A stretch of DNA of 64,000 nucleotides, taken from NCBI GenBank assembly GCA_949358305.1, contig OX442314.1, positions 3,596,001 to 3,660,000 on the forward strand. The letters are read 5' to 3'. Of this stretch, positions 1 through 64,000 are shown piece by piece (the first letter of the stretch is position 1; the number at the start of each line of letters is the position of its first letter). Origin of the DNA: Strigamia acuminata. Lineage: Eukaryota. Under the pieces are notes generated by a model that had not been told where the DNA came from, made no database searches, and was given only the letters and a program-made list of their open reading frames with translations. A program made the translations under genes and the position numbers.

Positions 1-76
1 ATAATCAGTGATGACCAGACTCGACAAAAAAATCGAAAAATAAAATTCGAAAAAATAACATGAAATGAAATTTAAG

Positions 77-25161: not shown

Positions 25162-25179
25162 AAAAAAGTAATAATAATC

Positions 25180-27657: not shown

Positions 27658-27831
27658 ATTTTAAAATAATATATACGTATATAAAATATATATAAATATA
27701 TATAATATATAATATATATATAATATATATATATATATAATATATATATAATATATATAATATATAATATATAATATATATAAATAAATATATATAAAAT
27801 AATATATACGTATATAAAAAAAGAAATAAAA

Positions 27832-28655: not shown

Positions 28656-28689
28656 TTAAAAAATAGTTTTTTTCCCTTCTATTAAAAAA

Positions 28690-30330: not shown

Positions 30331-30346
30331 ACTAACCATCGTCATA

Positions 30347-32668
30347 TTAATCCTCCGCCAAGCTTACGTATCCATAAGCCAAAGTATGAATACAATCATC
30401 TAATATCACTCGTTTCTTGTCTTTCGCCGACAATGCCAATTTGTCCACCTTGACCGTTGTGAGATCGTGCAGTTTTGATTTGATCGTTTCAAATTTCAAT
30501 CTGTGGGCCTCCCGTTCACCGAACAATATCTTCTTGTACGCCTCCAAGTCCAGCTCTTGCTCCACGACAGCCTTCTTTATGCCTTTACATCGCATGTTCG
30601 TTTTCCCGTTCACGTTATAAGCGTAACATTTGGCTCTTAGCCCTACAAACTCTTCTATCGGCTCGCCGGCAGTCTCGTCTTTGAAGCATCCTATGACACG
30701 CCTGTTTCTGCCATCGGGTGGGTGGTAATTAGACAGATCCATCACTTGTGGTATTTCTTCTCTGAAGAACGAGTAGACTGACGGAGCTTCTATTTCGTAC
30801 ATCAAACTATCCGTATCTGTCATCAGCAATCTCAGCTTGTCTGAGAATTTTTTTTTCATGACGTTGTAATGAAAGTCGTAGAGCAAGCATTTAGACAAGT
30901 CCAGGATAGTTAAACCGCTGTAAATAGGTTTGTCTAACGTCAATTCCAGCTTTCGCCGTTCAACCAACACCAGTTTTTTGTTTAATTTTTTTTTTCCTTT
31001 GAAACCGACGTGGTTGACGTGAGTATTCAAGTCTTTTGCATTGTTTACCAGATAAAATTGTCTATATTTCCTCACGTCCTGCAAGGTTTTTCCAAAGACC
31101 GAATTGTTAGCTAATTTCGCCAATTCCTGCTCAAAATCACTGGTAGCTGACTTCCGTTTCTCAATATTCAATTTGATATACTTGGCCAGCCACGGTTTTT
31201 GCTCAAACGTCAGCACTCTTTTTATTTTCATCAACGTCATGCCCAGGGACAAGTACAATTGCAGAGCTCTGTAATGCAGAATGTAATTACAACGAGCTTG
31301 CAAATGCGGGATTAATCTGGGAGAAGTGTCATCCCCAGAACGTATCATTTCCGGAGCCAAAGGCAAACAATTGTGGGACGAATGCAGTTCTTGCGGATAT
31401 CCCAAATCCACTTCCAAGATGCATCCCATCGTATCGTTCTCTCCCATTTTTAAAATCCGTTCTTGTGACCATTCGGCTACATTATCGTCGAAGGCAAACT
31501 TGCCAACTGGTAGCGGTTTGCTCATTGCCCAGGAATACATGGAATTCGCATCCAAATAGACGATGTAACTCTCTGGTTTCTCGCAATCGTATCCCGATGC
31601 CAGAAGAGGATTATTGGCTTTGGCGTAGCGTTGACTGATAGTGGCAACACCGCCTCTTATTCCTTGTTCGACAAACATGTACATATCTGGATCAGACAGA
31701 AGCTCCAATTTAACTTCGGTGATGAGCAGCGCAGCGTCCCAAGAAAGACTTGGAAACGTGATGTAATGACAGGGGTCTAGCTTGTAATGATTTAAACACA
31801 TTTTTCTGAACTGTTCGAATATATCCGCCAACAACAGAGTGTCGGTCTTCAGATACAAATCGTGATATTCGCCCATGTTTTTAATTCCGAACGTTTTCCA
31901 AACTAACTGGGCATATTGGTATTCGTCGTCGGTTATGTTCTCAAATTCTTCTTTCGGCGGAAGTTTATCTTCTTGAAATTTTGACCAACCGGTCATATAT
32001 CTGTAAGGGTACACTCCTTTCCTCAACAGAAGATCAATTTCCTCGCCTTTAAACTCGCTTCGAAAGACAGCGAACTGCGACTTCTCTAGATTTTTTGCCA
32101 AATTGGATAAACTGCTCGCGAGAAATTGGAAACTATCCATGAATTTTAACGTTACGACCTGTTTTGGATCATCACCGGTCTTGATTTTCAACGTGAACGA
32201 TTTGTATAATTCCGAGTTTTCGGCGATCATCGTCACTTTTTCTGACGCGACGGTCAAATGCGGCAATATTAGATGAAAATCATACTTTTTTCCATTATGG
32301 AAAATTATAGGCACAGATTTCCGCCAATGGTAGTTGAGGTTACAATTAGCGTGTGCGGCCCCACGAAACTTCCCGGTGAAATGGTTATGATCCAAGACTT
32401 TTGTCAAGCCTTTTAATTCTTCCAAGAATTCATCACCGCATAAGTAACACGTTGTTGCATTTCTATAAGCGATCCATTGAAGCGAAGTCATCGTTTTGGA
32501 ATTGAATTGTTTATGTTCCAATTCGGAAAATTGCTGAACCACGGCTTTAATTTCCGCACGCAACGATTGCAAAAAATGATCGACGGCATCCGGACCTCTA
32601 TACAGCTGTAACGGTCTGGAATAAGCTTCGTTCTCAGTGCACACTACTTTAAACGAATAACCGCACGG
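30347..32668 (-). CDS. Protein-primed family B DNA polymerase (pPolB) with an endonuclease-VII-like Zn domain; 5' end in the gap
   Basis: CYLC...DHNHFTGKFRGAAHANCN, FHNGKKYD, RKGVYPY, YLKTD, YLDANSMY, KLANNSVFGK, MTDTDSL, LRAKCY and KG motifs. Confidence 0.95.
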   Translation of the reverse strand, partial: PCGYSFKVVCTENEAYSRPLQLYRGPDAVDHFLQSLRAEIKAVVQQFSELEHKQFNSKTMTSLQWIAYRNATTCYLCGDEFLEELKGLTKVLDHNHFTGKFRGAAHANCNLNYHWRKSVPIIFHNGKKYDFHLILPHLTVASEKVTMIAENSELYKSFTLKIKTGDDPKQVVTLKFMDSFQFLASSLSNLAKNLEKSQFAVFRSEFKGEEIDLLLRKGVYPYRYMTGWSKFQEDKLPPKEEFENITDDEYQYAQLVWKTFGIKNMGEYHDLYLKTDTLLLADIFEQFRKMCLNHYKLDPCHYITFPSLSWDAALLITEVKLELLSDPDMYMFVEQGIRGGVATISQRYAKANNPLLASGYDCEKPESYIVYLDANSMYSWAMSKPLPVGKFAFDDNVAEWSQERILKMGENDTMGCILEVDLGYPQELHSSHNCLPLAPEMIRSGDDTSPRLIPHLQARCNYILHYRALQLYLSLGMTLMKIKRVLTFEQKPWLAKYIKLNIEKRKSATSDFEQELAKLANNSVFGKTLQDVRKYRQFYLVNNAKDLNTHVNHVGFKGKKKLNKKLVLVERRKLELTLDKPIYSGLTILDLSKCLLYDFHYNVMKKKFSDKLRLLMTDTDSLMYEIEAPSVYSFFREEIPQVMDLSNYHPPDGRNRRVIGCFKDETAGEPIEEFVGLRAKCYAYNVNGKTNMRCKGIKKAVVEQELDLEAYKKILFGEREAHRLKFETIKSKLHDLTTVKVDKLALSAKDKKRVILDDCIHTLAYGYVSLAED

Positions 32669-32868
32669 NNNNNNNNNNNNNNNNNNNNNNNNNNNNNNNN
32701 NNNNNNNNNNNNNNNNNNNNNNNNNNNNNNNNNNNNNNNNNNNNNNNNNNNNNNNNNNNNNNNNNNNNNNNNNNNNNNNNNNNNNNNNNNNNNNNNNNNN
32801 NNNNNNNNNNNNNNNNNNNNNNNNNNNNNNNNNNNNNNNNNNNNNNNNNNNNNNNNNNNNNNNNNNNN
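32669..32868. other. Assembly gap (200 N)
   Basis: Run of exactly 200 N; base composition differs on the two sides. Confidence 0.99.
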
Positions 32869-34090
32869 AAGACGACGAAGACGAAGACGAAGGCGAAGGC
32901 GAAGGCGATGGAAACGGTGGAAACGACGGCGGTCGCGTCGGACATGGTCGCGGCACCGCTCCTGGACGCGGGATGAAGCGCGATTGCGGTCTAATCGCTA
33001 GCATTGCGAAGAGCAAACGCGAACGTGAGGCTAAACAAATACGTGGACGCGAGCCGACTCCCACTACAAAGTCGTCGCCATCGTCGTCGTCGTCGTCGCC
33101 GGACAATGACAAACCGGATCCGTTCAAGGTAAAGGAAAGGGATCCTTTCCGCTGCTCTCATTAATTTGGTGGTTTGTGTTTGACTGAAATTTCAGACAGC
33201 CTTGTATCGCGAGAAACGAGACATCACGGGAAGCAAATGCGACAGTGTTTACTGCGCGGAGTCGACTAGTCCGCGACTGAGTTGCAAATCGTGTTCCTCT
33301 TCGGTACACGAAGAATGTGTGGGGCGGACATGGACCAACCGGAAAAGCTACACCAAGTTCTTTTGTAGCGGTTGTCGTAAAATTCCTCCCGCTCCTATCA
33401 CGAAACTGCGGTGAGTGTTTTCTTTCATTTTATTCTGTAATTAACTATAATTTTTTTGGCCACACCGTAGTCTAATTCGCTTGTTCATTTTTTGCTAAAC
33501 TAGTTTTAATTATTTCACACAGGTACTCCACTTACTCGATTGAGCAAAATCTCACCAAACACTTCAACATCTGCTTCCAACACGTCGCAGACGTGCTCAA
33601 TGGAAAGCTTAAAAGTTGGCGAATGAACCTCTTTGACAAAGGTGCCCCGAAGCGATCGTCCATGTCGACCGACCGACACGATTTACTGATCCAAGACGAA
33701 GAACTGGTACAGACTATAGATTTTTTATTATTTTTATATGTTTTTGTTTGTTTGTTTGTTTGTTTGTTTGTTTGTTTGTTTGTTTGTTTGTTTGTTCTTT
33801 TCTTTCGTTCGATTGAATTTTGCTCATTTACATTTCAGTGCAAACGTTTTGCTCATTCTATTATAAAGAAAATAAGCACGGACCTGCCCATAAAAACACA
33901 GTATGCGCAGACGTGGGGACCAGACGGAATTGAAACGTTCATGACAGCGGTCGCAATTCCCGAATTTCTGACCCGATTGATCTCTAAGATGGAGGACATC
34001 GATCGGGACCACGCAGACTTTTTCCTGGCTAATGTGGATCGCCCGCGGTATTTTGTTGACGATTTGAAAGACACGCGTGCCAGTCCGTGA
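32869..34090 (+). CDS. Spliced PHD-finger protein, 5' end in the gap (exons ~32869-33128, 33196-33410, 33523-33706, 33839-34090)
   Basis: C4HC3-like CDSVYC...CKSC....HEEC...CSGC; in-frame GT-AG junctions; AATAAA at ~34148. Confidence 0.7.
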
Positions 34091-34859: not shown

Positions 34860-37558
34860 ATGACCGCGCGTTATTTGCAAACCCGAACCCCCTATTATCA
34901 GATACCCGTGTCCAACCCTTCTCGGAGGTTTGTTAAAAGATCTACTCGACCGACTCTGGTAAATCGCGAAGAAAGGTGCACCAAATGTTGTCGCAATAAT
35001 GCATATACATATCGTGGGAATATCCTGCATCCTATTTTCCCTGAAATACCAATGCAAATAGCCACCCGCGCTATTTCCACTGCAAAATTTTCTCGTTCGT
35101 CCGTACTTATTTTACTTTACTTTACTTTACTTTACTTTACTTTACTTTACTTTACTTTACTTTACTTTACTTTACTTTACTTTTTTTTTGTTTTATTTTT
35201 TGTTTTTTTGTTTTGTTTTGTTTTGCCTAGGTCCATGACGGACGGTTTTCCAAAAACGCCCAACGACACGCGCGTATGGGCCGCCACGACGACGCGGTAC
35301 CGACAGGACGTCGGATTCAACGGCGAAACACCCGGCTATCGCGGCCGATGCGTGGCTACCAGCTCGGAATTCGACTATTTCGAGGAACTCTTCGGCGAGG
35401 CGGCCCGCTTCACCGTGACGGCGACGAACCGGGCCATTCGGAGAGAGGCGAAGCAGGAGAAAGAAGTGGGAAGAACGCGAGTACAGGTGTTGGGAAAAGT
35501 TGACGCACACGTTGCACACGTCGTTCACGGGGGTTCTCAGACGCGTTTTTGGTCGATTGTTCGTATAATATACATGTTTTTCGTTTTAGACGCGTTCGAT
35601 GCAACGACCACGAGGTCCGAGAACTAGACAAAGGACGTTGGTCGCCGTGGCTTGCGGTAGTGGCGCTGGAGCACACGGACCACAACGCAGTGTTTTGAGA
35701 GTGTGTATCACCGCGGCCGACAGAAGGGCAGCCGAGCTGGCCGCCGGGCGACAGCCCCGACTTCCGTCTCGACCGCAACACCCGCCACAACCGAGAGGGA
35801 CAGCGACAAGGGCGCGCGCGCGGGTCCGCCCTCTAACGCTCGATGAGTTTTATGTATATCTAGGGATCCACGTCTTGGCCGGCTACAACAAACAACCCGA
35901 ATTGCGACACTACTGGTCGAGCAGCAACGTCGGTGATCTCGGTGCACCGGCCGTTGGGCGAGCCATGACACACAAGAGGTTTCAGGAGATTTCGCGGTAC
36001 CTTCATTACGGCACGCAACCGTCCTACCAACGGTTGCACGTTACCGGCTCTGCACGCGGCCCCGATGGCGGCAGCACAACGGCGGAAAGGGTGTCATTTT
36101 TGAAAGAACGCGAACAGGACGACCGCGCGATGAAAGTTCGCTTGTTCGCCGACCTGGTCAACAAACGCTTCCGCGCATGTCGGCAACCAAGGACGACGCT
36201 CTGCATTGACGAGTCGATGATCGCCTTTCGAGGTCGATCAAAGATAAAAGTGCGTACATTTATTTATTCATCCAGTTGTCTACATTTGTTCATTCGTTCG
36301 GCAAATTTCTTCCAGGTCTTCCAACCGGCCAAACCCATCAAATGGGGATTTGAACTTTTCACGTTGTGCGAAGCGGGCACCGGCTACGTGCTGAACGACG
36401 AGGTGCACTTGGGCAAGCGCACCAAGATGTATTTTGACCCGGACGAAGAGCCGGAACCAGAGTGAGTCAATTCATTGTCTTTTCTATTTCACCTCGGATT
36501 GCTTTACTCCAAACTTGCTAGGTATCCGGGTAGTGTCCTCGGACGCATCGTCGTATACGTGGCCAGACACTATCTCGGCATGGGGTACACTATCGCCTGC
36601 GATAATCGATTTTCGTCCGCCGTGTTATTCGAACACCTCTTCACCCGCCACAACACCATGGCCGTGGGGACGCTGCGGGCCAATTCGGCCCAGATGCCAT
36701 CAGATTTTTCGACACTCAGACGATATCAAGGCAACCGGAGAGGTAACGCATTTGCTCGGACGTGAACGCGCGTTTGATTCATTCAATTATTAATTTTTAT
36801 TCTATCTATCTATCTATCTCTCTCATTTTTTTTTTTTTTGTAGGCGATTTCATACAACGACAAAACGGTCGGTTGGTGCTCACTGCGTGGCGAGACACAA
36901 CCACCGTGAGTTTGCTCAGTACGAACGTCGACCCACTGTCAGCGGCCGGCCGTGTCTTGCGTCGTATCGGTGGCAGGAACGTGGATATTGCATGTCCGGC
37001 GCCCGCACTGTCCTACATCGAAAATTTTCATTGGGTAGACGTCTTGAACCGACTCGTCTCCTCATTCCACATCGGACGCCGGTCCAGTTATTGGCACCGA
37101 TACTTCTTCTTTCAAAAGCTGAATCAAGGTGGGATCAAGGCCCCAATCTCTGATTATTATCATTATTGTTATCGTTACAATCTTAATCTCGACTCGTCGT
37201 TTTCCATTTATTCCCCGCAGTGTGTGTCAACGCCCGAATCAACATGCGCGAAGTCACAGCCCCCGCGCGCGGCGATCGATCGCAATTACAATTCCGAAGG
37301 GCACTTGTCGCTCAACTCTTGGCTCGGGAGAGGACGAGGACGACGACCACGGCCTCGCGCGCGGCCCTACCTACTGGACCCGTCGTCCATCGAATGGAGC
37401 GCGCGGGGAAAAGTTGTCGATGCGTGGTGTGTCGCGAGGTCCACAAAGAACGCCACGAGAGCAGTTTCTGGTGCGCTCCCTGCCGGACCCACCTATGTCG
37501 CCCACGCTACCGCAATTGTTTCCAACTCCACGAAGCCGGCGCCGGTAGATTGCCGTGA
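34860..37558 (+). CDS. Intron-containing piggyBac (PGBD4-like) transposase; exons 34860-34927 (tentative), 35231-35486, 35590-36249, 36316-36461, 36522-36742, 36844-37128, 37221-37558
   Basis: YW...M...RF..I.RYLH, CIDESM (D1), KPIKWG, CDNRFSS (D2), GTLRAN, WRD...LLST, WVDVLN (D3) and C-terminal Cys-rich CVVC...CAPC.THLC.....CF..H; intron phases are compatible; AATAAA at ~37588. Confidence 0.9.
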
Positions 37559-37693
37559 TTTTCTATGCTCTTTTGTTTGTAAAACTCAATAAATAAATAA
37601 ACTTTTATGATTTCCACCAGAACATGTAACAATTTTTTTATCTATTTATCGTGTGATAGATGCAGCGGTGGCGATGATGAGATGACAATAATA

Positions 37694-49941: not shown

Positions 49942-50364
49942 TTCCAGTTCATGTATGCTCGCTACCAGTTTGTTGACGCGACACCTGTTGGCGATTCCGC
50001 GAATGATTTTGATTCAAAGTCTCCGATTTACACCCGTTTTTAAGAGCTACGATGTTTTGGTTTTGGAGTCGGCTATGTGATCGTTTTTTAATTAAAAACG
50101 AAACAATTTTGGGTCAGACGATAATATTTTGGGCTCCGTTATAATTTCGAGCGCGCGATCGTGAGCGGGGTGCTGTGATGCCCACTTCACTCCAGTCGCG
50201 TTTAAACAAACCAACAAGTTCGGGTTTCTGTCCCCTTTACTCATTTGTTTATTTTGGAGTTTTTATCGTGGGTCAAAAACGTTGACCAGAGGCGACGTCA
50301 CATGTACAAAAGGGCAATAAAAGTACAAGTTTACTCGAATGGAGAAAACATTGCGTATATATAA

Positions 50365-50404
<40 letters not shown>

Positions 50405-52337
50405 TTATTTATTTACTGTCTACGCGCGGCCACATAAATAAATTCAATGGGAACCCCGTGGAATCGTGTGTTGCATTCACGCCCAATAGATGGCGTTGTT
50501 TATTTATTTATTTATTTATTTATTTATTTTAACTAATGCAGGTGTAACATCCGGTTGGTCCGGCGTGCGACGAGAGACTAGGCGGTGTTTAAGTTTGACT
50601 GTTTATTATCGACGAATAGAGTAAACAATAAGTAAATTCTTCGAAGACGGAGAACATCGGGAGAAGTGGGTAACACTAAAACTCGATTGAAACGGGCAAA
50701 AGACGGTAGAGAGGCGCTAATAAATCCGTTCGAGTGACATCGGGTCGTGAAAACGACCTAACTAGCTTCGATTAACTGGCAGGAACTAATAAACGTTTAT
50801 TCGAGTCGACAGTCTAAACGGGCATAAACTGTCTAAAAGTGATGGTGACGGGAGCAGTTCGGGACGGGAATTGGTAAAACCCGAAAACAGAGAAGACTCG
50901 CAACAAAAGCAATGGCCGCCGTTGGAAACGACGAGAAATAAGCGTCAGCGGATGAAGACAAACTAGGTCGGAGCCCGGGAGGAAAAAAAAGCCGCGAAAA
51001 CAAGCACAACAGGTGAGTAAAATTCGGATGCCTGAGTTCAAATAAATCCCGGGGAAATAAACTGAAGAGTGTACGTTTTTTCTAGGACAATAATGCGGGT
51101 CCATCGGGGAGAGAATAGGACGCACCGCGGTCCTCTCACAACTATATTGGAAATAGAAAGGGACAACGAGGACGCATTTGTCGACAACGAAGCGACAGAG
51201 AGTGGAAAATAGGAAAGGAAGGGCAATTAGATGAGTTCTTTTTACATCACATACTTCTGACAGCGTATTAAAAAACAGATTGTTCTCATTTTTGCAGGAA
51301 ACACGATGCGCAGACGGTTTGCTACGTGTCATTCTCGGTTGCTCGCGACAGGTGCCACACGGAGTCCTCGCGTCGTTCTTGCGTGTTGACACACATACAT
51401 ACTCGCGCGCGCATACACACAAGGCCATTCGAATCGATGTTACAGAATCTGGAAGAAATTTAACGAATTTGCGTGCATTGTTTTTCGCACAACGTTGCTG
51501 AAGGACCGTTCATCCATCGAAATTACGGGTGCATGTAGAAAAAAACTGATTTATGACTTTATTTCTATTTTTCATACAGGTTAACGATGTTAAACCGAGT
51601 GAAATAATGCGGATCGAATCTTTTTAATACGAGTTGATTTATTTGGTTTGAACGAATTGAATTAATTTATCTTGAATTTCAGGTGGAAGAAAAACAAGTG
51701 ACCGACTAGATATAAAATCGAGTGTTTCGCGACACCTGGAACGAAACGAGTTGTTGGATGGGTGAAATATGATCAGAAAATGTATAAATATTTGAATTTT
51801 AACCAGACGTTTTATGATTGCAGGATTTTGTTAAACTGATTGATTAATTGCAACCTAGACGTGGCGTGTTGCCTCCTAGTGGACGATGGTATCAGCTCCT
51901 GGTGCGTCAACAAGAAGGACGTGCAGTCTGTGTCTCCTCTACGACGACACCGAGTCTGGTCGCTCGAAATGCTCCGTTGCGATGCCGGGCAATGGGCCGC
52001 TCAGCACGTACACGCTCGTCGACGGCGCGCGTCCCATCGCTGCGGACCCGGGGTGCTGCAAGGAGAAGACAGGCAGACGGATAGATGGAATTAATAATTA
52101 AATTGAAAATTTGATTCAACTTTTGGGGTGACTAAAACTCAAAGACAAAGTTTGTAATTTACTCGCATCGAAAGATAAATTAGTTGTTGTTGTTGTTGTT
52201 GTTGTTTTTTTTTTTTTTTTTTTTTTTTTTTTCAAAATACTATTTATTAATAAAATGTTACACGATGATTGTTCCACATTGATTATTTGTTGATTATTTG
52301 TTTTACAATTACACTTTCAATTCTCGGTGAGCAGTTC

Positions 52338-53100
52338 TTTGCGTTCCGACGCGTCGCTATCGAGATTGATGTCGGGTCTCGTTCGATTGGCTGCGTTCAA
52401 ATCAATCAAAACTGTGAACACAGGGCCAACGCAAATCGCGAAATCCACACGCCCATCAATCAATCAACCACGGAGTTTAAATAAATGAATAAACAAATAA
52501 TTTAATAAATGAACAATGCCGACACCGCGGAAGCATGTTTCCGAACGTTTCGGTGCCGACGCGCATTCGTGAGTAAAGCGCATGTCGACTTACCGGCGAG
52601 ATCGCGTCACCCGTTAATAGTACGCGCGTTTGAACGCGGCCTAGTGCGCGACGAGGCGCGCAATGCGGGGTAGAAGAGCGGGCATCGTTTCCACCGCGTA
52701 TTACGACATTTACGGGGGCGGGTCGCAGGGATAAATTAACACGAGTCGAATCGAATCGAATCAACCCGACAGGAGCTTTTTTTTGGAACAATGTGTCGGG
52801 GCTGCCGGCGCTCGTCCGTCGACACCAGCTGCCCCTATTTGCCGCGAATGCGACCCTTTGCACGACCCTTTGTACCGTGCAAACCGGCACTGGTTTGGCC
52901 GATGACAACACAGGATAGATTAAAAGTGATGAGACAAATCCACCACCGGAACCCTCCGAATATCCGCGAGGACCCGGAACGGTCTGAAACCGTTTGTTTG
53001 TTTGTCTGTTTGTTTGCAAATCCATCGAACGTAGTGACGAAAACTCACTTCTCCTACGCTGGCGCGTCGAGTACAATGGGGTGAAAATAAAATCGTAAAC
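52338..53100 (+). repeat. Diverged direct repeat; partner at ~61173-61900
   Basis: Collinear blocks such as TTTGCGTTCCGACGCGTCGCTATCGA / TTTGCATTCCGACGCGTTGCTATCGA, GGGGTAGAAGAGCGGG, GATAAATTAACACGA and ATATCCGCGAGG.CCCGGAACG.TCTGA. Confidence 0.85.
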
Positions 53101-53398
53101 CAATAGAGGCGTTCGTGGCCTCGTTTCGTGCAACACTTGTCACCGATTTCTATTCTTTTATTTAACTCGACACGATCGTTTGCGCGCGGGATTTGACGCC
53201 CGTTCGCGTAATCCGCGTCCTTTAATGGACGCCAAAAATGTTTGTTGCGACGGTAGCGCGTTCTGGCGGCAATTTAGCGCAATGAAGCGCGATCACGGCG
53301 GACCAGAGAGAGAGAGAAAGAGAAATCGACACGACTCGACGGGAACTTATTTTTGGAACAAATTTATTGGGGGCTGCCGTCACCAGCTGCCCCGTATG

Positions 53399-53934
53399 TG
53401 TTGGTCAAAAGACCATTTTGTATCGATGAATACATTTGTTATTTCCTAGTTTTCCCTTTGTGTTTAGGTATACAGCGCATCTTTGTTATTATTTAATTGA
53501 TTTCGATGTTACCATTCGTTTTGCGCTGTCCCGTATGTAATTCCATACTTTTATCACTTTATGCTAGGATTTGTCCTATTATCAAATGATTTGTTCAAAC
53601 TTAATGTAAATTCCCGGCACTAGGTGCCACTACCCATTGCTTTTTCATCCAAGATGGCGTCATACACAGCCGTGTATGACTTAGCTGCTTTCCCACCTGT
53701 TTGGATACCTATTTGTAATGTATTACTATTTAATTAAACCGTTTTTATTGTTTTGCTCATTGTGTTTGATTTAAAGCACCTTTAGTGCTTCTTGCTAGCG
53801 CATATAAGCGGCATTAGGCCGCGCGCATTTCCGAAACGATACGCGTCGTATCGTTAACGTCTGTGCGGGTCGCACAGCGCCAATTCACGCTTTCAATCGG
53901 TTTACACCGATATTTTGCGCATTCTCTGCCTACA
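53399..53934 (+). repeat. 5' LTR
   Basis: TGTTGG...CCTACA; matches 60058-60593. Confidence 0.97.
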
Positions 53935-53935
53935 T

Positions 53936-53953
53936 TGGTAGCAGAGGATGGTT
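53936..53953 (+). promoter_or_regulatory. Primer-binding site for initiator tRNA-Met
   Basis: TGGTAGCAGAGGATGGTT is complementary to the 3' 18 nt of animal tRNA-iMet. Confidence 0.93.
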
Positions 53954-54843
53954 GTTGGTTAAACAACCACTCCATTCGCCTAATTTATCGACGTTTTTTC
54001 GCGAAATTCGCGAATTTGCGCCGATATTTTTATTTTCAGATTTTCGGCGGCCATTTTGTCTCGATTTTCGTCTCGCCTGCGACGCCGACGTTTTATCGAC
54101 GTTCACAGACGACCAGGGTCGTCAATCACACCATTATTTGTCTAATTTTCTCCGAAATTCCGCGGGATTCGCGAATTTCGAGAGAATTTCTTTCTTTTTG
54201 CAGATTTCACGTCGATTTTCGCTTCGCCAACGTCGAAGCGACGTTTTTCAACGAGAAACGGATCGAATTCCGCTGTGTATACCCCGGCGTATGCACAGTA
54301 TCGTCGATCTATTATTTTCCGGACGAAGAGCCTCGATTTATCGAGAAGAAATTCGGATTTTTCAATCCGAATTTGCGCTTTTTCCAGTTTTTCGAGAAAA
54401 CTGCGCCGTGCCTTCATTTGCACGAGGATCGCAACCGCGATCGATTCACCTATTTCTCCTTCTGTCGAAATACTATTGTTAATTTTAAGATATTATTAAG
54501 GCTTTTGGGGGTTCCTTTAGAATCGTGTTTGCCCTTGGATCGAGTCCGGTCAAGCTTACACGTATTCTCCGGTTGTGCTTGTCGTGGTACAAGTGAGGTT
54601 TCCCGCGGCTCCAGGAAGCCGATCGGACCCTCTCAGACTGGCAACCGGAGGTTATTTGATTCCTTCAGAAGGAATTGCCCAATTTGTGGTTTTTCGCCTC
54701 GAACACCGAGGGAACCGTGCAGTGAAGTGCTCCGAATTGTGAAAATTGTGAAAAGTGCTCCAATCTTGTGCGACATTTCAGCGCCTCTCTCTGAGTCAGT
54801 GTGATTTTCGCGTTGTGTTACGCTCTTCGCGAATCGATCTACG

Positions 54844-57800
54844 ATGCAGAAAGCGGCCAACTCGAACAGTTTAATTCCGGTTCTCGGTGTCGACAATTAT
54901 GAACAATGGCGATTGTCGATGCAGTTTCTCTTAAAATCGGAAGGGCTTTGGCGTCACGTAACGGAGGATAAGGAGGCAGAGCACATTGCCACCCTGACGC
55001 CAAAAGAACTTGATCGCTTTATGGTGAAGAAGGACAAGGCCCTAGGCCACATATACATCCATGTGAGCCCCGCCAAGCGTACAGTTTTGGAAACCTGTAA
55101 CACGCCAAAGGAGGCGTGGGACAAGTTGGCGAAAACCTACGCACCCAGCTCTAGAGCCCGTCAAGCGGCGATGCGCTGGGAGTTTCTCAGCCTCCAACTC
55201 CAACCTGGCGAAGATATGCCGGACTTCATTGCCCGCGTCGACAATTACGTGCGGCAACTAAGCGATGTCAACGAGATTATTAGCCCGGTTCACCACGCAT
55301 ACCAGTATTTGAAGTGTCTGCCGCCTGAATATGCTCAGGCAACATTTGCCATATACCACTGGCCGGATCCCCAATTCACGCCGAAGGATGTCGCCGAGCA
55401 GCTGATTTCCGAGCACATGCGGCTCAAATCCATCGGGTTGCTCGGAACGAGCCAATCATCAGCTCACACGTCTATGAAGGGACAATTCCGACCCCGAAAT
55501 AAATCCGGACCTCGTGATATCTCGACAGTGAAGTGTTTTAATTGCGACCAGCTCGGACATTACGCGAACCGATGTCCACGTCCACCCCGTCAACAACAGG
55601 GACAACCTACGGTTTCACTCCAACGTAATTCTCGGAGCAAGAGTCGCCGGCGCAACAAGAACGCTGCTGCGAAGGCCAACAACGCGCGTCCCCGAGAAAG
55701 CTCGCATCCACACCGAGAGGGGACATATTTTGTCAATGCGCCGCAGGTTATCCAACGTCCAGTCGCTCATTTTATGCAATCCAATGAGTGGATTCTGGAT
55801 TGCGGCGCTACAGATCACGTATCTCACGTGCGTGCCGGTTTCACCGAGTTCACCGATGTCATTCCATTCGACATCGAGTTGGGACAGGGAAAGTCCCAAG
55901 TGACGGGAAAAGGAACGGTTCGTTTGCTAATGGCGATCGATAAGACCCGGTGCACCGTGAATTTAACAAACGTCCTTTACGCGCCGAATTTCGAGGCAAA
56001 CTTGATTTCGGTTTCGAAGATAGACAAGGCGCGACATCATATCCACATTTTCAATAGTGAGATACATGTTTACGAATCGGACATTCGCAGCCCTCTTATT
56101 CGTGCAAACGAGAGAGGAGGTCTTTATTATGTGGACGGTTTGTGTACAAATCCGACATTTGCGACAACGGTTTCTCCCACTGTACAACCGACTCCAACGC
56201 TACCGCCGCAAATGTACGTGACTACGGAAGAGGATTTCATTAAAATTCCCAAACCGAAAAAGGGAAAAGGACAGCAACGAGAAATTACGGATTTTCGGAT
56301 TGAAATGCCGCTAGTTGAACCCGTGAAGCAAATTCCCGTCCAACAAGCTCCCATTCCAACCAATCCGATTCCTCCTCCTATCCCTACTCAAATCCACAAC
56401 GATTTGACCACCCTTCCTTCCTATGCGAATGCCCTACAGTCAATCCCAACGGCAACTCCTATTGCAATTCCAAATGCAAATTCCTTTCCTCCCCTTGGCA
56501 ACCCGTCTCAACCTAAAAAGAAGGTCATCGCCAATCCAGCCTCCGTCAAGGACGCCACCGGCTTATGGCATAGCCGTCTTGGCCACCTTCATACGAATGG
56601 AATGAAGCTATTGGCCGCAAACGACCAAGTTTACGGAATGTCACCAGGGGAAGTGAGCAGGGAATTGGCCTGCAACGACTGCAGAATAGCCAAATCGACA
56701 AAAGCTTCTCATAAGCCTGATCCTAATCCCTCGACTACGAAGCCTTTGGACCTTCTCCACATGGATATTTGGGGGCCAGCCCCAGTTCCATCGTTTGGAG
56801 GAGCACGTTTTGTCCTTACCGTCATCGACGACGCAACACGCTATTGCTGGATTATACCGCTAGCCCAGAAATCGCAGGTTTTCGCAACCTTTAAGGACTT
56901 CGTTGCTCGAGTTGAGAGAATCCAGGACACGCAAATAAAAGCGATTCGGACTGATCGAGGCGGAGAGTTTATGTCAAACGAGTTTCTCCGATATCTACAA
57001 GCCAAGGGCATCCAAGGTCAACGGACAAATCCGTCGTCACCACAGATGAACGGCACGGCCGAGCGCATAAACCGGACAATGGCCGACAACTTTCGTGCAG
57101 TCTTATCCGAGACTAAGTTGCCGGAGGCGCTCTGGGCCGAGCTAGCGGTCACGTTTGCCTACATCAAGAATCGGAGCCCTCATTCTCGACTTAACAATCA
57201 AGTTCCGTATATCCTTTGGCGACAGAGAGCCCTTTCGTTACGACATCTACGAAAAGTCGGTTCCAAGTGCTGGGTGCACTACACCGCACCAGGACGCAAG
57301 AAGCTGGATCCGCGGGCCTGGGAGGGATATTTAGTCGGCTACGCTTCAGGGACCCGTGGATACAGAATTTGGAACCCAACTGACAACCAAGTCTACGAAT
57401 CTATTCACGTTAAGATCGATGAGCGGCAGTCGTATCGGAAATCCATCAAAATTTCGACGCAGCAGCCGCAACAATCGTTTACTGGTCCCGGACAGCAAAC
57501 CGTTACATTTGATGATAACCTACATTACCATCAGTGGCCGAAAGGATCTGATTCCGAGGCGTCAGAACATTCTGCGAACGATTCCGAACGTGTGTCGACG
57601 GCATCCGCTTCGATGCACACGCCTCTGGCTTTTCCGCACATCCACATACCACCACCGACAACTCCGGAACGGGCATTGCTGGATTTATGTGCGACCTTAC
57701 CTCCGGGTTCTGCGTCTCTTCGACAATCCCATCATATTTCATATGAAGAGGAACGTGATACGGACCACGACATCCGAGAGATGGACGAATTGTCAATTTA

Positions 57801-59847
57801 TCCGGAAACATCCGAACACGTTGATGCGTCAGCGGAACAATCGGCACGACCATCGCCTCCGACAACTCCTCGTACATCCGCTCCGCCATCACCTCAGCGA
57901 TCGGCAGCGCCTTCTCTTCCCCGTGAAACACCGGTACCGACGCCGAGATTTATTACGACGCGTCGTCAGCAACGTGTTGATGATCAGGCTGCGCAAGGGT
58001 TGCAAATTTTCGACCCCGATCCCAATTCACCAGCGACTGCGCGCCACACTACTCATAAGTGGCGATTCGTCGGTGGAGATGGCGAGTGCCGTGAATGGGT
58101 ACGCGAGGAACACCTGAGAAAGGATCAAAAACCCGGGAAGATCTTAATTGATGTCTATTATTTTCCAACTCCGAAGATCCGTCTAAGATCTTATCACGAC
58201 ATCGAGGAGTATTGTATGTTGAACAATATTGATTACGACCCCGGACTGTTTTTCTTCGGTAATCTCGAACACAAATTGCCAACTCTTCCGGGCGTTCGTC
58301 ATGCGGCTCATCTGTGCCGAACCGAGCCGGCTTCATTCGCCGAAATTCCCAAGTTCAACGACGCTCCGAAATGGCGTGAAGCAATCGGAGAGGAACTCGA
58401 TATGTTCAAAGAGCGAGAAATCTATAAAGAAGTTCCCCGACCACCCGACACCACTATTCTTGGCTGCAAGTGGATTTTTAAACTCAAAACCGATGCAGCC
58501 GGAACCGTCACCCGATACCGAGCACGCTTAGTAGCACAAGGTTTTTATCAAACCCTCGGAGTCGATTTTGATGAGGTGTTTAGCCCAGTCGTGAACTTCA
58601 TATTGATCCGTCTGTTTTTCTGTCTTCTCGTCGTATTGCGTGGTTGGCAGGACGCCCACCTCGACGTGAAAGGTGCGTACCTGTACGGGGAATTAAAGCA
58701 TAACGTATACATGAGAATCCCTGCAGGTGCCACATGCACTGATCCAAATAACGTGTGGCTTCTTCTCAAATCGCTTTACGGCCTCCACCAATCCGGGAGA
58801 CAATGGTTCGAGAAACTTGACGAGACACTTCGGGCCCTCGGATTTCGAAGACTGCCAGCATGTAATTGTGTTTACGTGTTCGGGAATACAGCTGTTATGC
58901 TGGTCTACGTGGACGATATCGTCGTGTTTTACGCGTCCGACAGCGTTTTTAATCAGCTAATCCGTCTCATCTCTTCGAAATTCGATATAGTCAACCTCGG
59001 TCCAATCACGAAGTTATTAGGCGTCGAGTTTATCCGCGACGCCGGACGCACGTTCATAACGCAACGTGCTTATATCGCCAAACTGGTTAAGAAATTCGGG
59101 GCGTCGACCAATAATCTCGTCAAGACACCAGTGACCCCGGGAACGACACTCGTTAGAGGATCGACCGAAAACTTGGAAGATTTTCCATACCGATCTCTAA
59201 TCGGTTCACTTCTGTTTTTGGCATCGAGAACTCGTCCCGACATACTCTATTCCGTCATCGCTTTGGCACAGTACAACACGTGCTATAATCGAACCCACAT
59301 CCGCGCCCTGTTACAGGTTCTGCAGTACGTGGCAAACACTGCGGAGCTTTGCATCGAGTTATCCGGTTGCTCTTCTAGTCAACTATCTGCATTTACCGAC
59401 GCGTCGTGGGCAAGCGATCCGGAGACATCATTGAGCTTCGGAGGATACATCGTATACGTTGGAAATGTCCCTATTGGCTGGTCCTGTCGCAAACAGTCGA
59501 CCGTAGCGTGCTCAACCATGGAAGCTGAATTTATCGCCCTGGTTGAGTGCGTGAAGGAGATTTTCTGGCTCGACAGCGTGTACACCGAATTCCCGATTCT
59601 CAATCGTCTATCCCGACCTATCGTGTATTCGGACGCCCTGGCCTCGATTCAATTCACATCTAATGATATCGAGAACGCGAAGACGAAGCATATTCGCGTG
59701 AAGTTTCACTGGCTCAGGGAGTGGTTTACTGCGGGAGTCTTCGATCTTCGAAAGGTAGCCGGCGAAGCTAATACCGCCGACATATTCACAAAGTGGCTAT
59801 CTTCGGAACGTTTACGATCATTGATTTCGAAGATCTTCCGAGCATAA
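54844..59847 (+). CDS. Copia polyprotein: Gag - Zn knuckle - protease - integrase - MBD - RT - RNase H (1667 aa)
   Basis: CFNCDQLGHYANRC; WILDCGATDH; LWHSRLGH..C..C; HMDIWGP / RTDRGGEF / NGTAER; MBD-like WVREEHLRK...DVYY...LRS; LDVKGAYL, SLYGLHQSGR, YVDD; TDASWA, STMEAE, ADIFTK. Confidence 0.97.
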   Translation: MQKAANSNSLIPVLGVDNYEQWRLSMQFLLKSEGLWRHVTEDKEAEHIATLTPKELDRFMVKKDKALGHIYIHVSPAKRTVLETCNTPKEAWDKLAKTYAPSSRARQAAMRWEFLSLQLQPGEDMPDFIARVDNYVRQLSDVNEIISPVHHAYQYLKCLPPEYAQATFAIYHWPDPQFTPKDVAEQLISEHMRLKSIGLLGTSQSSAHTSMKGQFRPRNKSGPRDISTVKCFNCDQLGHYANRCPRPPRQQQGQPTVSLQRNSRSKSRRRNKNAAAKANNARPRESSHPHREGTYFVNAPQVIQRPVAHFMQSNEWILDCGATDHVSHVRAGFTEFTDVIPFDIELGQGKSQVTGKGTVRLLMAIDKTRCTVNLTNVLYAPNFEANLISVSKIDKARHHIHIFNSEIHVYESDIRSPLIRANERGGLYYVDGLCTNPTFATTVSPTVQPTPTLPPQMYVTTEEDFIKIPKPKKGKGQQREITDFRIEMPLVEPVKQIPVQQAPIPTNPIPPPIPTQIHNDLTTLPSYANALQSIPTATPIAIPNANSFPPLGNPSQPKKKVIANPASVKDATGLWHSRLGHLHTNGMKLLAANDQVYGMSPGEVSRELACNDCRIAKSTKASHKPDPNPSTTKPLDLLHMDIWGPAPVPSFGGARFVLTVIDDATRYCWIIPLAQKSQVFATFKDFVARVERIQDTQIKAIRTDRGGEFMSNEFLRYLQAKGIQGQRTNPSSPQMNGTAERINRTMADNFRAVLSETKLPEALWAELAVTFAYIKNRSPHSRLNNQVPYILWRQRALSLRHLRKVGSKCWVHYTAPGRKKLDPRAWEGYLVGYASGTRGYRIWNPTDNQVYESIHVKIDERQSYRKSIKISTQQPQQSFTGPGQQTVTFDDNLHYHQWPKGSDSEASEHSANDSERVSTASASMHTPLAFPHIHIPPPTTPERALLDLCATLPPGSASLRQSHHISYEEERDTDHDIREMDELSIYPETSEHVDASAEQSARPSPPTTPRTSAPPSPQRSAAPSLPRETPVPTPRFITTRRQQRVDDQAAQGLQIFDPDPNSPATARHTTHKWRFVGGDGECREWVREEHLRKDQKPGKILIDVYYFPTPKIRLRSYHDIEEYCMLNNIDYDPGLFFFGNLEHKLPTLPGVRHAAHLCRTEPASFAEIPKFNDAPKWREAIGEELDMFKEREIYKEVPRPPDTTILGCKWIFKLKTDAAGTVTRYRARLVAQGFYQTLGVDFDEVFSPVVNFILIRLFFCLLVVLRGWQDAHLDVKGAYLYGELKHNVYMRIPAGATCTDPNNVWLLLKSLYGLHQSGRQWFEKLDETLRALGFRRLPACNCVYVFGNTAVMLVYVDDIVVFYASDSVFNQLIRLISSKFDIVNLGPITKLLGVEFIRDAGRTFITQRAYIAKLVKKFGASTNNLVKTPVTPGTTLVRGSTENLEDFPYRSLIGSLLFLASRTRPDILYSVIALAQYNTCYNRTHIRALLQVLQYVANTAELCIELSGCSSSQLSAFTDASWASDPETSLSFGGYIVYVGNVPIGWSCRKQSTVACSTMEAEFIALVECVKEIFWLDSVYTEFPILNRLSRPIVYSDALASIQFTSNDIENAKTKHIRVKFHWLREWFTAGVFDLRKVAGEANTADIFTKWLSSERLRSLISKIFRA

Positions 59848-60045
59848 ACTTATCGTGACATTCCTAGTTTCTTTTCACCCGACTTCGAGGATCATCGGGT
59901 TTCTGTGGGAATACCGAGCTTAGTTAAGTGATAACCACGACAGTACCCGGCCCGATGGTTCGACTTTATCATCTTTTTTTTCTCAACGATTATCAACTGT
60001 AATTCCAGTTTACGTTCATCTTGTCCCCTGATAAATATTTCCATC

Positions 60046-60055
60046 GAAGAGGGGA
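60046..60055 (+). promoter_or_regulatory. Polypurine tract
   Basis: GAAGAGGGGA, 2 nt before the 3' LTR. Confidence 0.85.
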
Positions 60056-60057
60056 TT

Positions 60058-60593
60058 TGTTGGTCAAAAGACCATTTTGTATCGATGAATACATTTGTTA
60101 TTTCCTAGTTTTCCCTTTGTGTTTAGGTATACAGCGCATCTTTGTTATTATTTAATTGATTTCGATGTTACCATTCGTTTTGCGCTGTCCCGTATGTAAT
60201 TCCATACTTTTATCACTTTATGCTAGGATTTGTCCTATTATCAAATGATTTGTTCAAACTTAATGTAAATTCCCGGCACTAGGTGCCACTACCCATTGCT
60301 TTTTCATCCAAGATGGCGTCATACACAGCCGTGTATGACTTAGCTGCTTTCCCACCTGTTTGGATACCTATTTGTAATGTATTACTATTTAATTAAACCG
60401 TTTTTATTGTTTTGCTCATTGTGTTTGATTTAAAGCACCTTTAGTGCTTCTTGCTAGCGCATATAAGCGGCATTAGGCCGCGCGCATTTCCGAAACGATA
60501 CGCGTCGTATCGTTAACGTCTGTGCGGGTCGCACAGCGCCAATTCACGCTTTCAATCGGTTTACACCGATATTTTGCGCATTCTCTGCCTACA
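60058..60593 (+). repeat. 3' LTR
   Basis: No difference from the 5' LTR seen by eye. Confidence 0.97.
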
Positions 60594-62352
60594 GTATGCC
60601 CGTATGCCGATGCAATAGAGAAAACACTTTTTACAACGCATAAATGACATCTACTCCACCACGAACACCCCGAGGGTATTGAGACACGAAAAGGACGAAA
60701 CAGGTCCGTTTAAGCGCTCAGCGCTTGATGGCTCCTTGTTCGAAACAAGTGTGTCTGGTCTGGGTTTGAAAATGTCCGCAGAGTCGGTCGAATCCAACGA
60801 CAACAACTGCGTCGCCGGGGATGGTGCGAGGCGTCCGGAAGCCAGTTCTAAAATGTAAAATGTAATTTGTTTTCAATTTTTTTGTTGGGATCGACCCCAA
60901 CGAAGATAATCTCATTAAACAATGGAGCACGAACCGCGAAACTGATCCCATGATCGGGAAATCGAACTCCAGTCGTCCGCCCATCGTCGATCGCCAGGTA
61001 TCTTTAAGCGATAAACATGTCGCGCCTCGAGAGTTCGTGGATCTGATCTGACTTAATCTGACCTGGATCGAACCCGAATTTGAATCTTAATTTTACGTAT
61101 TTTTTAGCGTTTCAACATTACGTCAGTTTCCTTTTATTCAACAATTATACTTTTAATTTTCGTCGATAGTTATTTGCATTCCGACGCGTTGCTATCGAAT
61201 TTGACGTCGGGTCTCGGTCGATTGGCTGCGTTCAAGTCAGAATTGCGAACACGGGACCAATACACAGGCCGCCGTAACGCTAAAAATGAGGGACCTTTCC
61301 GCAATTTGCACACCACGAGGTCCGAATAGATGAATTAATAAATAAGTAAACGAATAAACAAATAAATAAACAATGCCGACGCCGTAGAAACGTGTAGAAG
61401 CGTGTTTCTGGACGTTTCAGTGCCGGTGCGCATCCGTGAGTAAAGTGTGCGTCGATTTAGCGGCGTGATCGCGTCACCCTTAATTGTACGCGCGTTTAAA
61501 TGCGATCTAATGCGCGATGAGGCGCGCAATACGGGGTAGAAGAGCGGGGCATTGTTTCAACCGCGTAGATCGCAGAGATAAATTAACACGATACGAATCG
61601 AATCGAATCAACTCGACAGGAGCTTTATTTGAAACAATGTGTCGGGGCTGCCGGCGCTCGTCGGCGCCAACTGCCCCTATTTGTCGCGAACGCGACCCTC
61701 CGACCATTCGCGTCTGGCCAGTGACGACGCAGAATAAAACGAGCGCAATCAAACCGATGCCACACACCGGAACCCTCCGGATATCCGCGAGGGCCCGGAA
61801 CGCTCTGAGAATGTTCGCAAAGTCCGGTCGAGCGCAATCTCAAAAACTCGCGTCGATTACATGGTGCGAGACAACCGGAAAAGAAAAAATAAAATATACA
61901 ACGGCGGATTTTCCACAAAATCTTTGTTCCAGTAGGTCGCTGCGAGGATAATCTAATTATTGGTCGGAACACAAATCGCGGAACCGACTCCAAGATCAGG
62001 AAATTAAACTTTGATCGTTTTCCCTATTATGCACATTTTTTGTTCCGAGTGGCAATGTCCGGTACGCGCGCGTCCGTCCCCTCCCTCTTTCTACCCGGAC
62101 ACCAAGACCCGGTGGACGATAGGTTGTGTGGACACTCGAATATTCGGGGTTCGGTCCTTTGCATTTATTCATAATGAAGACTCTTCTTACGTACAACTTA
62201 GCGTTATTTTTTTTCCCGCGTGTATTGTTTGCCGTCAACATGTTTAAAGTGCGTGCCGACTCGATCAGCGACCAAATAAGCGGAGTTGTAAACCCACGCC
62301 AAATTGAACGACTGCGGAAATATCGTCGCCAGTCCACGCATGCTCCACTTGG

Positions 62353-62386
<34 letters not shown>

Positions 62387-62811
62387 GCTCACCCACTCAC
62401 TCGCTTTCTCTCGCTCTCACTCTCGCTCTCGCTCAAGCTCTCGTCGACACCACGTTGCAGTGAAGCACGAAGCTTCGCTTCAATTGTCGCCATTTTTAAA
62501 TCGAGCTAGAGCCGGGCAAAGACAGTTTGCGTTTGCAGTTGCGTGTTTTGTTTCGTTTCGTTAAACGTGAGTGAGCGAGCGAGTGAACGAGCGAATGAGC
62601 CAAGTGTTTTGTGGTATCATTTGTCAATTATTCCCGCCCAATTATGCACGTATTGTATCCGTGAGCGCGCGCAGAAAAAATTTGTTTGTTTGGTCATTGT
62701 TGCTAACAGAAAATGAAGCTCAATTTAATAACCCATTTGTTTTTGTTTTTTTTGTTTTTTTTTCTTTTTCTTTTGATTTTATCTATCGCGTTTTTTTCGT
62801 TTTCAGAGACC

Positions 62812-63498
62812 ATGATGACAGGAACATGGAAGGTGAAAGGGGAAGGGGAAACATCGTCCATCTCGACGCCCGTTCTCCGTGCGACGCGGACTAGAACCAC
62901 ATCGCCGTCGTCGACTGCCGCTATCGCGTCGGTACCGCTCGATCCCGCTTTGTCCAAGCGTCCAGGCAGGCAGAAAAGGGGTAAACTGACGCTGATCAAG
63001 AGGGTACGCGCCACGTCTTGGGTTTTATTTATTTGCTTATTCTCTTTTTTTTTTTTTTTTCTCCCTTTCCCTTTCCAGTCGCGAAGAGAGACATCATTGC
63101 CGCCGCCGTCTTCACCTTCGGTGCTGCGGGAAGAGAGATTGGCAACAAGGGTCGAGGCGGTGATAACAGAAAAAATGGAGAATGTGGTGAAGAATGTGGT
63201 GAAGAATGTGGTGGAGAATGTGGCGGAGAATGTGGTGGAGAAGGTTATGGCGAAGCGAATGGAGAAGGTGTTGGCGGAGCAACTGGACAAAGTGGTTGCG
63301 GAGCGAATGGAGAAAGCGGCGAGATGGCGGGAAAAGAAGACGAAGACGTTGTGCGTGTTGAAGTCGGTGGGGAAGAAGCTAGAGGCGGTGCAGGCGGAGG
63401 TGAAGGAAATGGAGATGGACATGGTGGACATGATGGAGGAGGAAGATGGCTGTGGTTACGAAGGACTCGATGATAACGGTGATGAAAAGGAGTGGTAG
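62812..63498 (+). CDS. 2-exon orphan protein, likely paralog of 40327-40888
   Basis: Phase-0 intron 63004-63078 after a basic patch; VENV/VEKV helical repeats; acidic tail; AATAAA at ~63573. Confidence 0.6.
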   Translation: MMTGTWKVKGEGETSSISTPVLRATRTRTTSPSSTAAIASVPLDPALSKRPGRQKRGKLTLIKRVRATSWVLFICLFSFFFFFLPFPFQSRRETSLPPPSSPSVLREERLATRVEAVITEKMENVVKNVVKNVVENVAENVVEKVMAKRMEKVLAEQLDKVVAERMEKAARWREKKTKTLCVLKSVGKKLEAVQAEVKEMEMDMVDMMEEEDGCGYEGLDDNGDEKEW

Positions 63499-64000
63499 GG
63501 AGAAGGGGTGATGGGCCCTGGAGACGATGGTTACGATGTGACCGACAGTGACCACAACCAAGATTCTATCAAATAAATAGATAAATAAATTGACAAGTGT
63601 ACTCATAATTGTTGTATAGATTCTTTCGATCGAATAAACATTGTTTTAATATAGTTGTTGTCACGGTTCATACTTTGGCGAAAGCATGTCTGGCGATGGC
63701 AAGGGGCGCACGAGTGGCTACTCGCATGTCGTCCCCTGGGACATGCAGACTCGCTCTCGGACCTCAGGACTCATATTGTCGTCTGGCTCGCGTAGACAGC
63801 GTAGACAGCGATGGGGCAAGAAGTCTGGGAGATAAAGTTAAAATCTGAAACTGCAAATTTTTCACAAAACATTTGTTTCAATCGGTCCCAACGACGATAA
63901 TCTAATTAACAGTTGGAGCGCAAACCACGAAACCGATTCGACGATTGTGGGATTAAACTTTCATTGTCTTCCATGGGTATTTTTTATTCCACAGGGTGTC

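What the first reader, a model, noticed from the sequence alone, without database searches (positions are those of the whole stretch)
58057..58260. Methyl-CpG-binding domain inside the Copia polyprotein
Seen: after the integrase and a Pro/Ser linker comes EWVREEHLRKDQKPGKILIDVYYFPTPKIRLRSYHDIEEYC...FFF. This matches the MBD pattern W.R...R.....DVYY.P....RS and keeps both mCpG-contacting Arg plus the Asp/Tyr. Known: Copia elements with a captured MBD have been described in the centipede Strigamia and in spiders, so it is rare but not new. It points to a myriapod or chelicerate host (inference).
Basis: partly seen in the sequence, partly recalled or inferred. Interest (0 to 1): 0.7.

Follow-up and report, generated by a model that had tools for sequence, protein, structure and literature searches.

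The report
Retrotransposon carrying a methyl-DNA reader domain
This is a recently inserted, intact jumping gene that carries a borrowed methyl-DNA-binding domain next to its integrase, likely used to steer new copies into CG-rich repeats; it is a new member of a family already described from centipedes and spiders.

Summary
Confirmed, and already known in kind. The segment lies in frame between integrase and reverse transcriptase of a complete 7,195-bp Copia element (identical 536-bp LTRs, 5-bp target duplication, one 1,667-aa ORF). Pfam MBD matches it only below the curated cut-off (15.3 bits against 21). Three other results settle it. A profile from relatives scores it 60 bits (best shuffle 5.4). 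Its model matches solved MBD folds. It keeps the two arginines, the Asp and the Tyr. On RT/RNase H trees, the element and 36 of 120 listed relatives carry this domain at the same place and form one clade (bootstrap 100). That clade includes the published Stegodyphus CopiaMBD. Among host copies, 24 of 25 listed differences in the domain are synonymous. The element sits inside a CpG-rich, high-depth repeat whose empty site is seen in reads. The host is probably a myriapod. Additions: the clade extends to Araneus and Trichonephila; this domain has an atypical loop lacking a backbone-contacting basic residue, so binding may be weak; a close sub-lineage has lost the methyl-reading residues. Methyl binding and targeting were not tested. 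No look-alike stretch was found in earlier scan notes.

The parts
53394..53398 (.). 5' copy of the 5-bp target-site duplication
   Evidence: same five bases at 60594-60598; empty-site joint 53393 to 60594 in runs X1 and X3
53399..53934 (+). 5' LTR, 536 bp, TG...CA
   Evidence: identical to the 3' LTR over 536 of 536 bases
53936..53953 (+). primer-binding site, likely for initiator tRNA-Met
   Evidence: position one base after the LTR; tRNA identity recalled, not tested (no tRNA gene in the window)
53935..54843 (+). long (909-nt) CpG-rich 5' leader
   Evidence: 9.35 CpG per 100 bp
54844..59847 (+). single gag-pol ORF, 1,667 aa, no stop or frameshift
54919..55578 (+). gag with zinc knuckle
   Evidence: Pfam Retrotran_gag_2 E 1e-27, zf-CCHC E 1e-4
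55789..56031 (+). protease-like beta-barrel domain
   Evidence: Pfam Pol_BBD E 1.5e-16
56533..57435 (+). integrase: pre-integrase zinc domain, catalytic core, SH3-like domain
   Evidence: Pfam gag_pre-integrs, rve, rve_3, SH3_retrovirus
57436..58065 (+). Pro/Ser/Thr-rich linker between integrase and MBD
   Evidence: sequence; 4 of 5 listed differences between copies in its last part change the residue
58066..58263 (+). methyl-CpG-binding domain; key codons W 58096, R 58117, D 58150, Y 58156, R 58186, F 58255
58417..59136 (+). Copia-type reverse transcriptase (YVDD at 58906)
   Evidence: Pfam RVT_2 E 3.6e-57
59392..59793 (+). RNase H region
   Evidence: acidic motifs located and read by eye; no Pfam hit
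60046..60055 (+). polypurine tract
   Evidence: sequence, two bases before the 3' LTR
60058..60593 (+). 3' LTR, 536 bp
60594..60598 (.). 3' copy of the target-site duplication

Best explanation
An intact, recently inserted Copia LTR retrotransposon of the CopiaMBD clade carries a conserved methyl-CpG-binding domain in frame after its integrase, which likely stays on the integrase and steers new insertions toward CpG-dense, probably methylated repeats. Shown here: the element's anatomy, the MBD fold and residues, the clade, conservation of the domain among copies, and one insertion in a CpG-rich repeat. Inferred: that the polyprotein is cut after the MBD so that it forms the integrase's C-terminal module, that this domain prefers methylated CpG (shown only for three other Strigamia domains in PMC6673714), and that binding directs integration (a hypothesis in that paper too). 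Family membership about 0.93; the targeting mechanism about 0.6.
For: Complete element with identical LTRs, target duplication and one open ORF. The domain scores 60.4 bits on a relatives-only HMM, best shuffle 5.4. With a 29-row profile, 32 of 33 PDB sequence hits at E<=0.01 are MBD/TAM proteins, best MBD4 at 5e-9. The model has pLDDT 81.7; all 10 best structural matches among 48,161 chains are MBD domains, best Z 6.5, rmsd 2.2 over 58 residues. The element and 36 of 120 listed RT relatives carry the domain 20-70 residues before RT and form one clade, FastTree 1.0 and UFBoot 100; none of the other 84 scores above 0.4 bits. P0055 in that clade matches the paper's Stegodyphus CopiaMBD row, and one Strigamia row shares W.REEHLRK with this copy (compared by eye). 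24 of 25 listed differences among copies are synonymous, against 19.5% expected without selection. The flanks hold 9-11 CpG per 100 bp over 1 kb, against 4.0 around the host gene, and are themselves a high-depth repeat with an empty site.
Against: No binding, methylation or integration data exist for this element or host. The Pfam score is under the cut-off and Foldseek gives no match at E<=0.001. The fold matches the SETDB2 MBD (Z 6.4) and BAZ2 domains as well as MBD4, so it does not show methyl preference. The loop is one residue longer than in any of the 28 aligned relatives and has Leu where 24 of 28 have Arg or Lys. The insertion is a single case; its 150-bp flanks rank only 42nd of 212 windows in CpG density. 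Listed differences between copies show no excess of CpG transitions (16 of 59, about 28% expected), a weak test.
Confidence: 0.62

Rival explanations
1. The domain is a true MBD but a weak or methylation-blind reader in this lineage. It binds CpG-rich DNA or chromatin in general and tethers the integrase without reading the methyl mark.
For: Atypical loop and Leu at the backbone-contact position; loss of that basic residue contributes to much lower affinity in AtMBD6 (PMC8811898). The closest RT sub-clade includes five elements whose homologous domain lacks the Asp and the second Arg yet stays conserved. No CpG-decay signal among listed variants; CpG observed/expected is 1.2-1.5 across the window's regions.
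Against: All four recognition residues and an acidic residue at the E137 position are kept, and every listed difference at the two Arg codons and the Asp codon is synonymous. AtMBD6 keeps its methyl specificity despite low affinity. Strigamia transposons are CpG-dense and methylated at once.
Confidence: 0.2
2. The MBD acts outside integration, for instance by competing with host MBD proteins on the element's own methylated copies and so weakening their silencing.
For: Raised and not excluded by the authors of PMC6673714. The element and its leader are CpG-rich (7.9 and 9.35 per 100 bp). Purifying selection fits any function.
Against: The domain is encoded once within pol, directly behind the integrase, in all 37 members. 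The paper found no silencing-complex interaction domains and notes that competition would need high protein levels.
Confidence: 0.13
3. The segment is a decaying remnant or a chance look-alike with no current function.
For: Sub-threshold Pfam score; no phmmer hit in PDB for the single sequence; no hit in the word-indexed search with the region alone.
Against: Shuffle control, profile, fold and clade results; 24 of 25 synonymous differences against 1 of 5 in the adjacent linker, Fisher p 0.0009.
Confidence: 0.03

Closest known systems
CopiaMBD retrotransposons of Strigamia maritima and Stegodyphus (de Mendoza, Pflueger and Lister 2019, PMC6673714)
   Same: Copia order gag-PR-IN-MBD-RT-RH in one ORF; MBD next to integrase; same RT clade as the Stegodyphus element; recognition Tyr and both Arg kept; purifying selection on the domain; insertion in CpG-dense repetitive DNA.
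   Different: Loop between the first Arg and the Asp is 11 residues and lacks the SG..AG pattern of the three tested domains; Leu at the backbone-contact position; at most 51% RT identity to any listed relative; not identical to any row of the paper's MBD alignment (by eye); methyl binding untested.
Host MBD4/MeCP2 and MBD1/2/3 methyl-CpG readers
   Same: Fold (Z 6.5 to MBD4, 5.3 to MeCP2) and the four recognition residues.
   Different: About 24-29% identity; embedded in a transposon polyprotein; no repression or glycosylase domain.
Chromoviruses (Gypsy elements with an integrase chromodomain), as cited in PMC6673714
   Same: A chromatin-reader domain behind the integrase, thought to direct insertion to heterochromatin.
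   Different: Gypsy rather than Copia; reads histone marks rather than DNA methylation.

Membership tests
Ty1/Copia LTR retrotransposon | LTRs TG...CA, target duplication, PBS and PPT | tested here: met
   empty site
Ty1/Copia LTR retrotransposon | integrase before an RVT_2-type reverse transcriptase | tested here: met
CopiaMBD | MBD in frame between integrase and RT | tested here: met
CopiaMBD | RT in one clade with published CopiaMBDs | tested here: met
   37-tip clade, FastTree 1.0 (121 rows), UFBoot 100 (51 rows); includes Stegodyphus P0055, whose domain matches the paper's row. No Strigamia RT was in the tree (supplement cells were cut).
CopiaMBD | MBD under purifying selection among copies | tested here: met
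   24 of 25 listed differences synonymous; only 40 of 175 rows were shown
CopiaMBD | domain prefers methylated CpG DNA | not testable with these tools
   needs EMSA or DAP-seq
CopiaMBD | young insertions enriched in CpG-dense, methylated DNA | tested here: inconclusive
   one insertion, flanks 8.7 CpG per 100 bp, rank 42 of 212 windows; no genome held, no methylome
MBD domain (Pfam PF01429) | score at or above the gathering cut-off of 21 bits | tested here: inconclusive
   14.4-15.3 bits, only family hit; 27 of 29 aligned members hit MBD at E<=0.1
MBD domain (Pfam PF01429) | MBD fold (beta-sheet plus helix) | tested here: met
   best Z is a middling 6.5, but all top ten rows are MBD domains
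methyl-binding MBD subgroup (MBD1/2/4, MeCP2) | R111, D121, Y123, R133 equivalents | tested here: met
   R1092, D1103, Y1105, R1115
methyl-binding MBD subgroup (MBD1/2/4, MeCP2) | basic backbone-contact residue two before the Asp | tested here: not met
   L1101; Arg or Lys in 24 of 28 relatives; relevance from PMC8811898. Lowers expected affinity; not a defining feature of CopiaMBD.

The most novel reading that the evidence does not exclude
CopiaMBD is a wide, old arthropod clade in which the captured reader is being retuned: this element's branch has remodelled the DNA-contacting loop and its nearest sub-lineage has dropped the methyl-reading residues while keeping the fold, so these elements have switched to a methylation-independent or new targeting signal, here aimed at a CpG-rich multi-gene repeat.
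Probability: 0.2. Interest if true: 0.6.

Novelty: new member of a known kind. Interest (0 to 1): 0.3.

Why it matters
The published link between the captured MBD and integration site is only correlative and rests on one centipede and one spider genus. A young, intact, multi-copy member in another host, with filled and empty sites visible, adds an independent genome for the target-site test. The natural series found here (canonical, loop-altered, residue-lost domains in one clade) allows binding specificity to be compared with host methylation patterns. The basic discovery is from 2019.

Tried and rejected
No whole genome is held, so copy number and other insertion sites could not be counted. 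The word-indexed homologue search with the MBD region alone gave 0 of 21 candidates, and phmmer of the single segment found no PDB sequence; both lack sensitivity. The single-sequence fold was uninformative, pLDDT 44. Aligning the short segment to 28 full-length proteins scattered it (A2); that alignment was dropped. The 1.84-billion-protein profile search never ran, so the domain's full range is untested. No RNA holder was listed; run X6 laid nothing; neither says anything about expression. The value 46 printed for the clade came from re-rooting that shifts labels; read from the unrooted tree it is 100. The bacterial promoter scan of the LTR is not applicable and gave chance-level counts. The CpG-transition test showed no excess but uses only common listed variants, which would miss post-insertion decay. 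No clear terminal inverted repeats were found for the surrounding repeat or the Polinton-like block. Literature: 'CopiaMBD' is in 1 paper; searches found no follow-up on the family; a 2025 survey of metazoan Copia clades has 0 occurrences of 'MBD'. Subscription papers were not searched.

Full report
Observation. Its core is W1085 (58096) to F1138 (58257). Pfam finds gag, zinc knuckle, protease-like barrel, integrase domains and an RVT_2 reverse transcriptase in Copia order, but no MBD in the whole protein. On the isolated segment MBD is the only family hit, at E 0.029 and 0.016, 14.4 and 15.3 bits, under the cut-off of 21.

The element. Two LTRs, 53399-53934 and 60058-60593, are identical over all 536 bases. 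A 5-bp duplication flanks them. A primer-binding site follows the 5' LTR (its match to initiator tRNA-Met is recalled, not tested) and a purine tract precedes the 3' LTR. Contigs of runs X1 and X3 join 53393 to 60594, skipping 7,200 bases, which is the empty site. The insertion is therefore young and the element intact.

Is the segment an MBD? A search with the RT/RNase H part returned 678 proteins at E<=1e-50 among 7,991 scored; the best 120 were listed and 10 of them carry a precomputed Pfam MBD. An HMM built from those 10 segments, without the window, scores the window's segment 60.4 bits; reversed it scores -0.7 and the best of 1,000 shuffles 5.4. A 29-row alignment searched against PDB sequences gives 33 hits at E<=0.01, of which 32 are MBD or TAM domains, best MBD4 at 5e-9. 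Folded with that alignment the domain reaches pLDDT 81.7. Foldseek gives no match at E<=0.001, but its top rows are all MBD or TAM domains. The Foldseek-free search ranks ten MBD domains first among 48,161 chains (best Z 6.5, rmsd 2.2, 58 residues; next unrelated row Z 3.0). The ESM Atlas agrees at lead level (0.88).

Recognition residues. MeCP2 uses R111, D121, Y123 and R133, with E137 bracing the second Arg (PMC8811898, passages, abstract and section 11 read). The window has R1092, D1103, Y1105, R1115 and D1119 at these columns. Two things differ. The first Arg and the Asp are 11 residues apart, against 10 in 8 relatives and 7 in 20. Two residues before the Asp stands Leu, where 24 of 28 relatives have Arg or Lys. 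In AtMBD6 the lack of that basic residue is one cause of a one-to-three-order lower affinity, with specificity kept. The three Strigamia domains tested by DAP-seq have Gln, Lys and Arg there, and the Gln one gave the lower enrichment. Their results cannot simply be carried over. The fold also matches SETDB2 and BAZ2 domains, which PMC6673714 lists as not preferring methylated cytosine.

Family. Of PMC6673714 I read parts 1-4 of 7 of the text (abstract, results, discussion, part of methods) and parts 1, 42, 43 and 164 of 164 of the supplementary tables; the RT alignment cells were cut and the supplementary figures were not read. With my HMM, 36 of the 120 listed relatives have the domain 20-70 residues before RT (30 at 33 bits or more, 10 of these being the seeds; 6 at 5-14.5 bits), and the other 84 score at most 0.4 bits. 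The window plus these 36 form exactly one clade on RT/RNase H trees: FastTree support 1.0 with all 121 rows, UFBoot 100 with the 37 plus the 14 best-scoring MBD-less rows. The clade includes P0055 from Stegodyphus mimosarum, whose domain matches the paper's spider CopiaMBD row, and one Strigamia row shares W.REEHLRK and DVYY.PT with this copy (by eye). It also includes Araneus ventricosus proteins (clusters of 38 and 217 members) and two Trichonephila clavipes proteins with partial domains. The paper lists Nephila clavipes as searched and reports hits only in Strigamia and Stegodyphus (the synonymy is recalled). The known range is thus somewhat wider than published. Most other members are unnamed.

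Selection. Contigs from three runs differ from the window at many places. Of the 40 rows shown (175 in all, best supported first), 25 fall in residues 1071-1144, and 24 are synonymous when each is read singly against the window's codon; 19.5% would be expected without selection. In the linker just upstream 1 of 5 is synonymous (Fisher p 0.0009). The listed differences at both Arg codons and the Asp codon are synonymous. This is not a full Ka/Ks, but the domain is clearly maintained.

Context and host. The flanks hold 10.8 and 9.2 CpG per 100 bp over 1 kb, against 4.0 in the host-gene part of the window; the 150-bp flanks rank 42nd of 212 windows. The flanking DNA from 50,000 to 64,000 has summed contig depth as high as or higher than the element in X1 and X2, so it is itself repeated (depth is not a copy number). 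It continues a CpG-rich block from about 33.2 kb that holds a spliced piggyBac-like transposase. This fits targeting to CpG-rich repeats but is one insertion. No methylome exists here, and listed variants show no CpG-transition excess (16 of 59), which is a weak test. The ABCA gene at the window's start matches a centipede protein best, 195 bits against 80 for the next of 7 hits, and across exons 1,707 summed bits against at most 999. A myriapod host is likely (about 0.75); only one myriapod was among the comparators.

Mechanism. Most likely the MBD is the C-terminal module of the mature integrase and tethers the integration complex to methylated CpG-dense DNA, so new copies land in other repeats. 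The position is shown. Processing, methyl preference and targeting are inferred from the published family, where binding was shown and targeting was argued from insertion patterns. The main rival is a weak or methylation-blind tether. It gains from the altered loop and from a sub-clade of five close relatives (P0002, P0003, P0006, P0008, P0009; UFBoot 100) whose segment is homologous to the MBD alignment (HHalign probability 97%, E 6e-11) but lacks the Asp and the second Arg.

Novelty. 'CopiaMBD' occurs in one held paper, and three further searches found no follow-up. A 2025 survey of metazoan Copia clades does not mention MBD (PMC11889832, passages only). Earlier scan notes hold no look-alike stretch; two notes describe MBD-like genes at DNA transposons in other genomes and were not checked. 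Verdict: a real, conserved MBD in a new member of a published family; interest 0.3.

Noticed in passing
proteins P0002, P0003, P0006, P0008, P0009 (unnamed ENA records): A well-supported sub-clade among the closest RT relatives keeps an MBD-derived domain at the same place but lacks the recognition Asp and second Arg; a candidate case of a captured reader losing or changing its specificity.
   Followed up: partly
window 33200-64000: The element sits in a CpG-rich block of small genes with short introns and low-complexity proteins, high in read depth where tested (50-64 kb), with a spliced piggyBac-like transposase at about 35200-37600. It may be a large multi-gene mobile element; its ends were not found.
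   Followed up: partly
window 21798-33157: Polinton/Maverick-like block: integrase with chromodomain, A32-like ATPase, double jelly-roll capsid protein and protein-primed-type DNA polymerase B, cut by an assembly gap at 32669-32868.
   Followed up: no
window 1-3865 and 14143-18006: 99.9% identical direct duplication of the 3' exons of the ABCA gene; a recent tandem duplication or an assembly artefact.
   Followed up: no
window 12760-13100: Degenerate array with 25 CCTAA units, resembling the arthropod TTAGG telomere motif (recalled), at an interstitial position.
   Followed up: no
window 56140-56530: A second Pro-rich low-complexity insert between protease and integrase makes this polyprotein longer than most relatives.
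   Followed up: no
window 52305-52857 and 61141-61699: An 80-85% identical repeat lies on both sides of the insertion within the surrounding block.
   Followed up: no
proteins P0011, P0039 (Trichonephila clavipes), P0016, P0036, P0048 (Araneus ventricosus): Orb-weaver spiders hold members of the MBD-bearing clade, annotated only as generic Pol polyproteins; not reported in the 2019 paper.
   Followed up: partly
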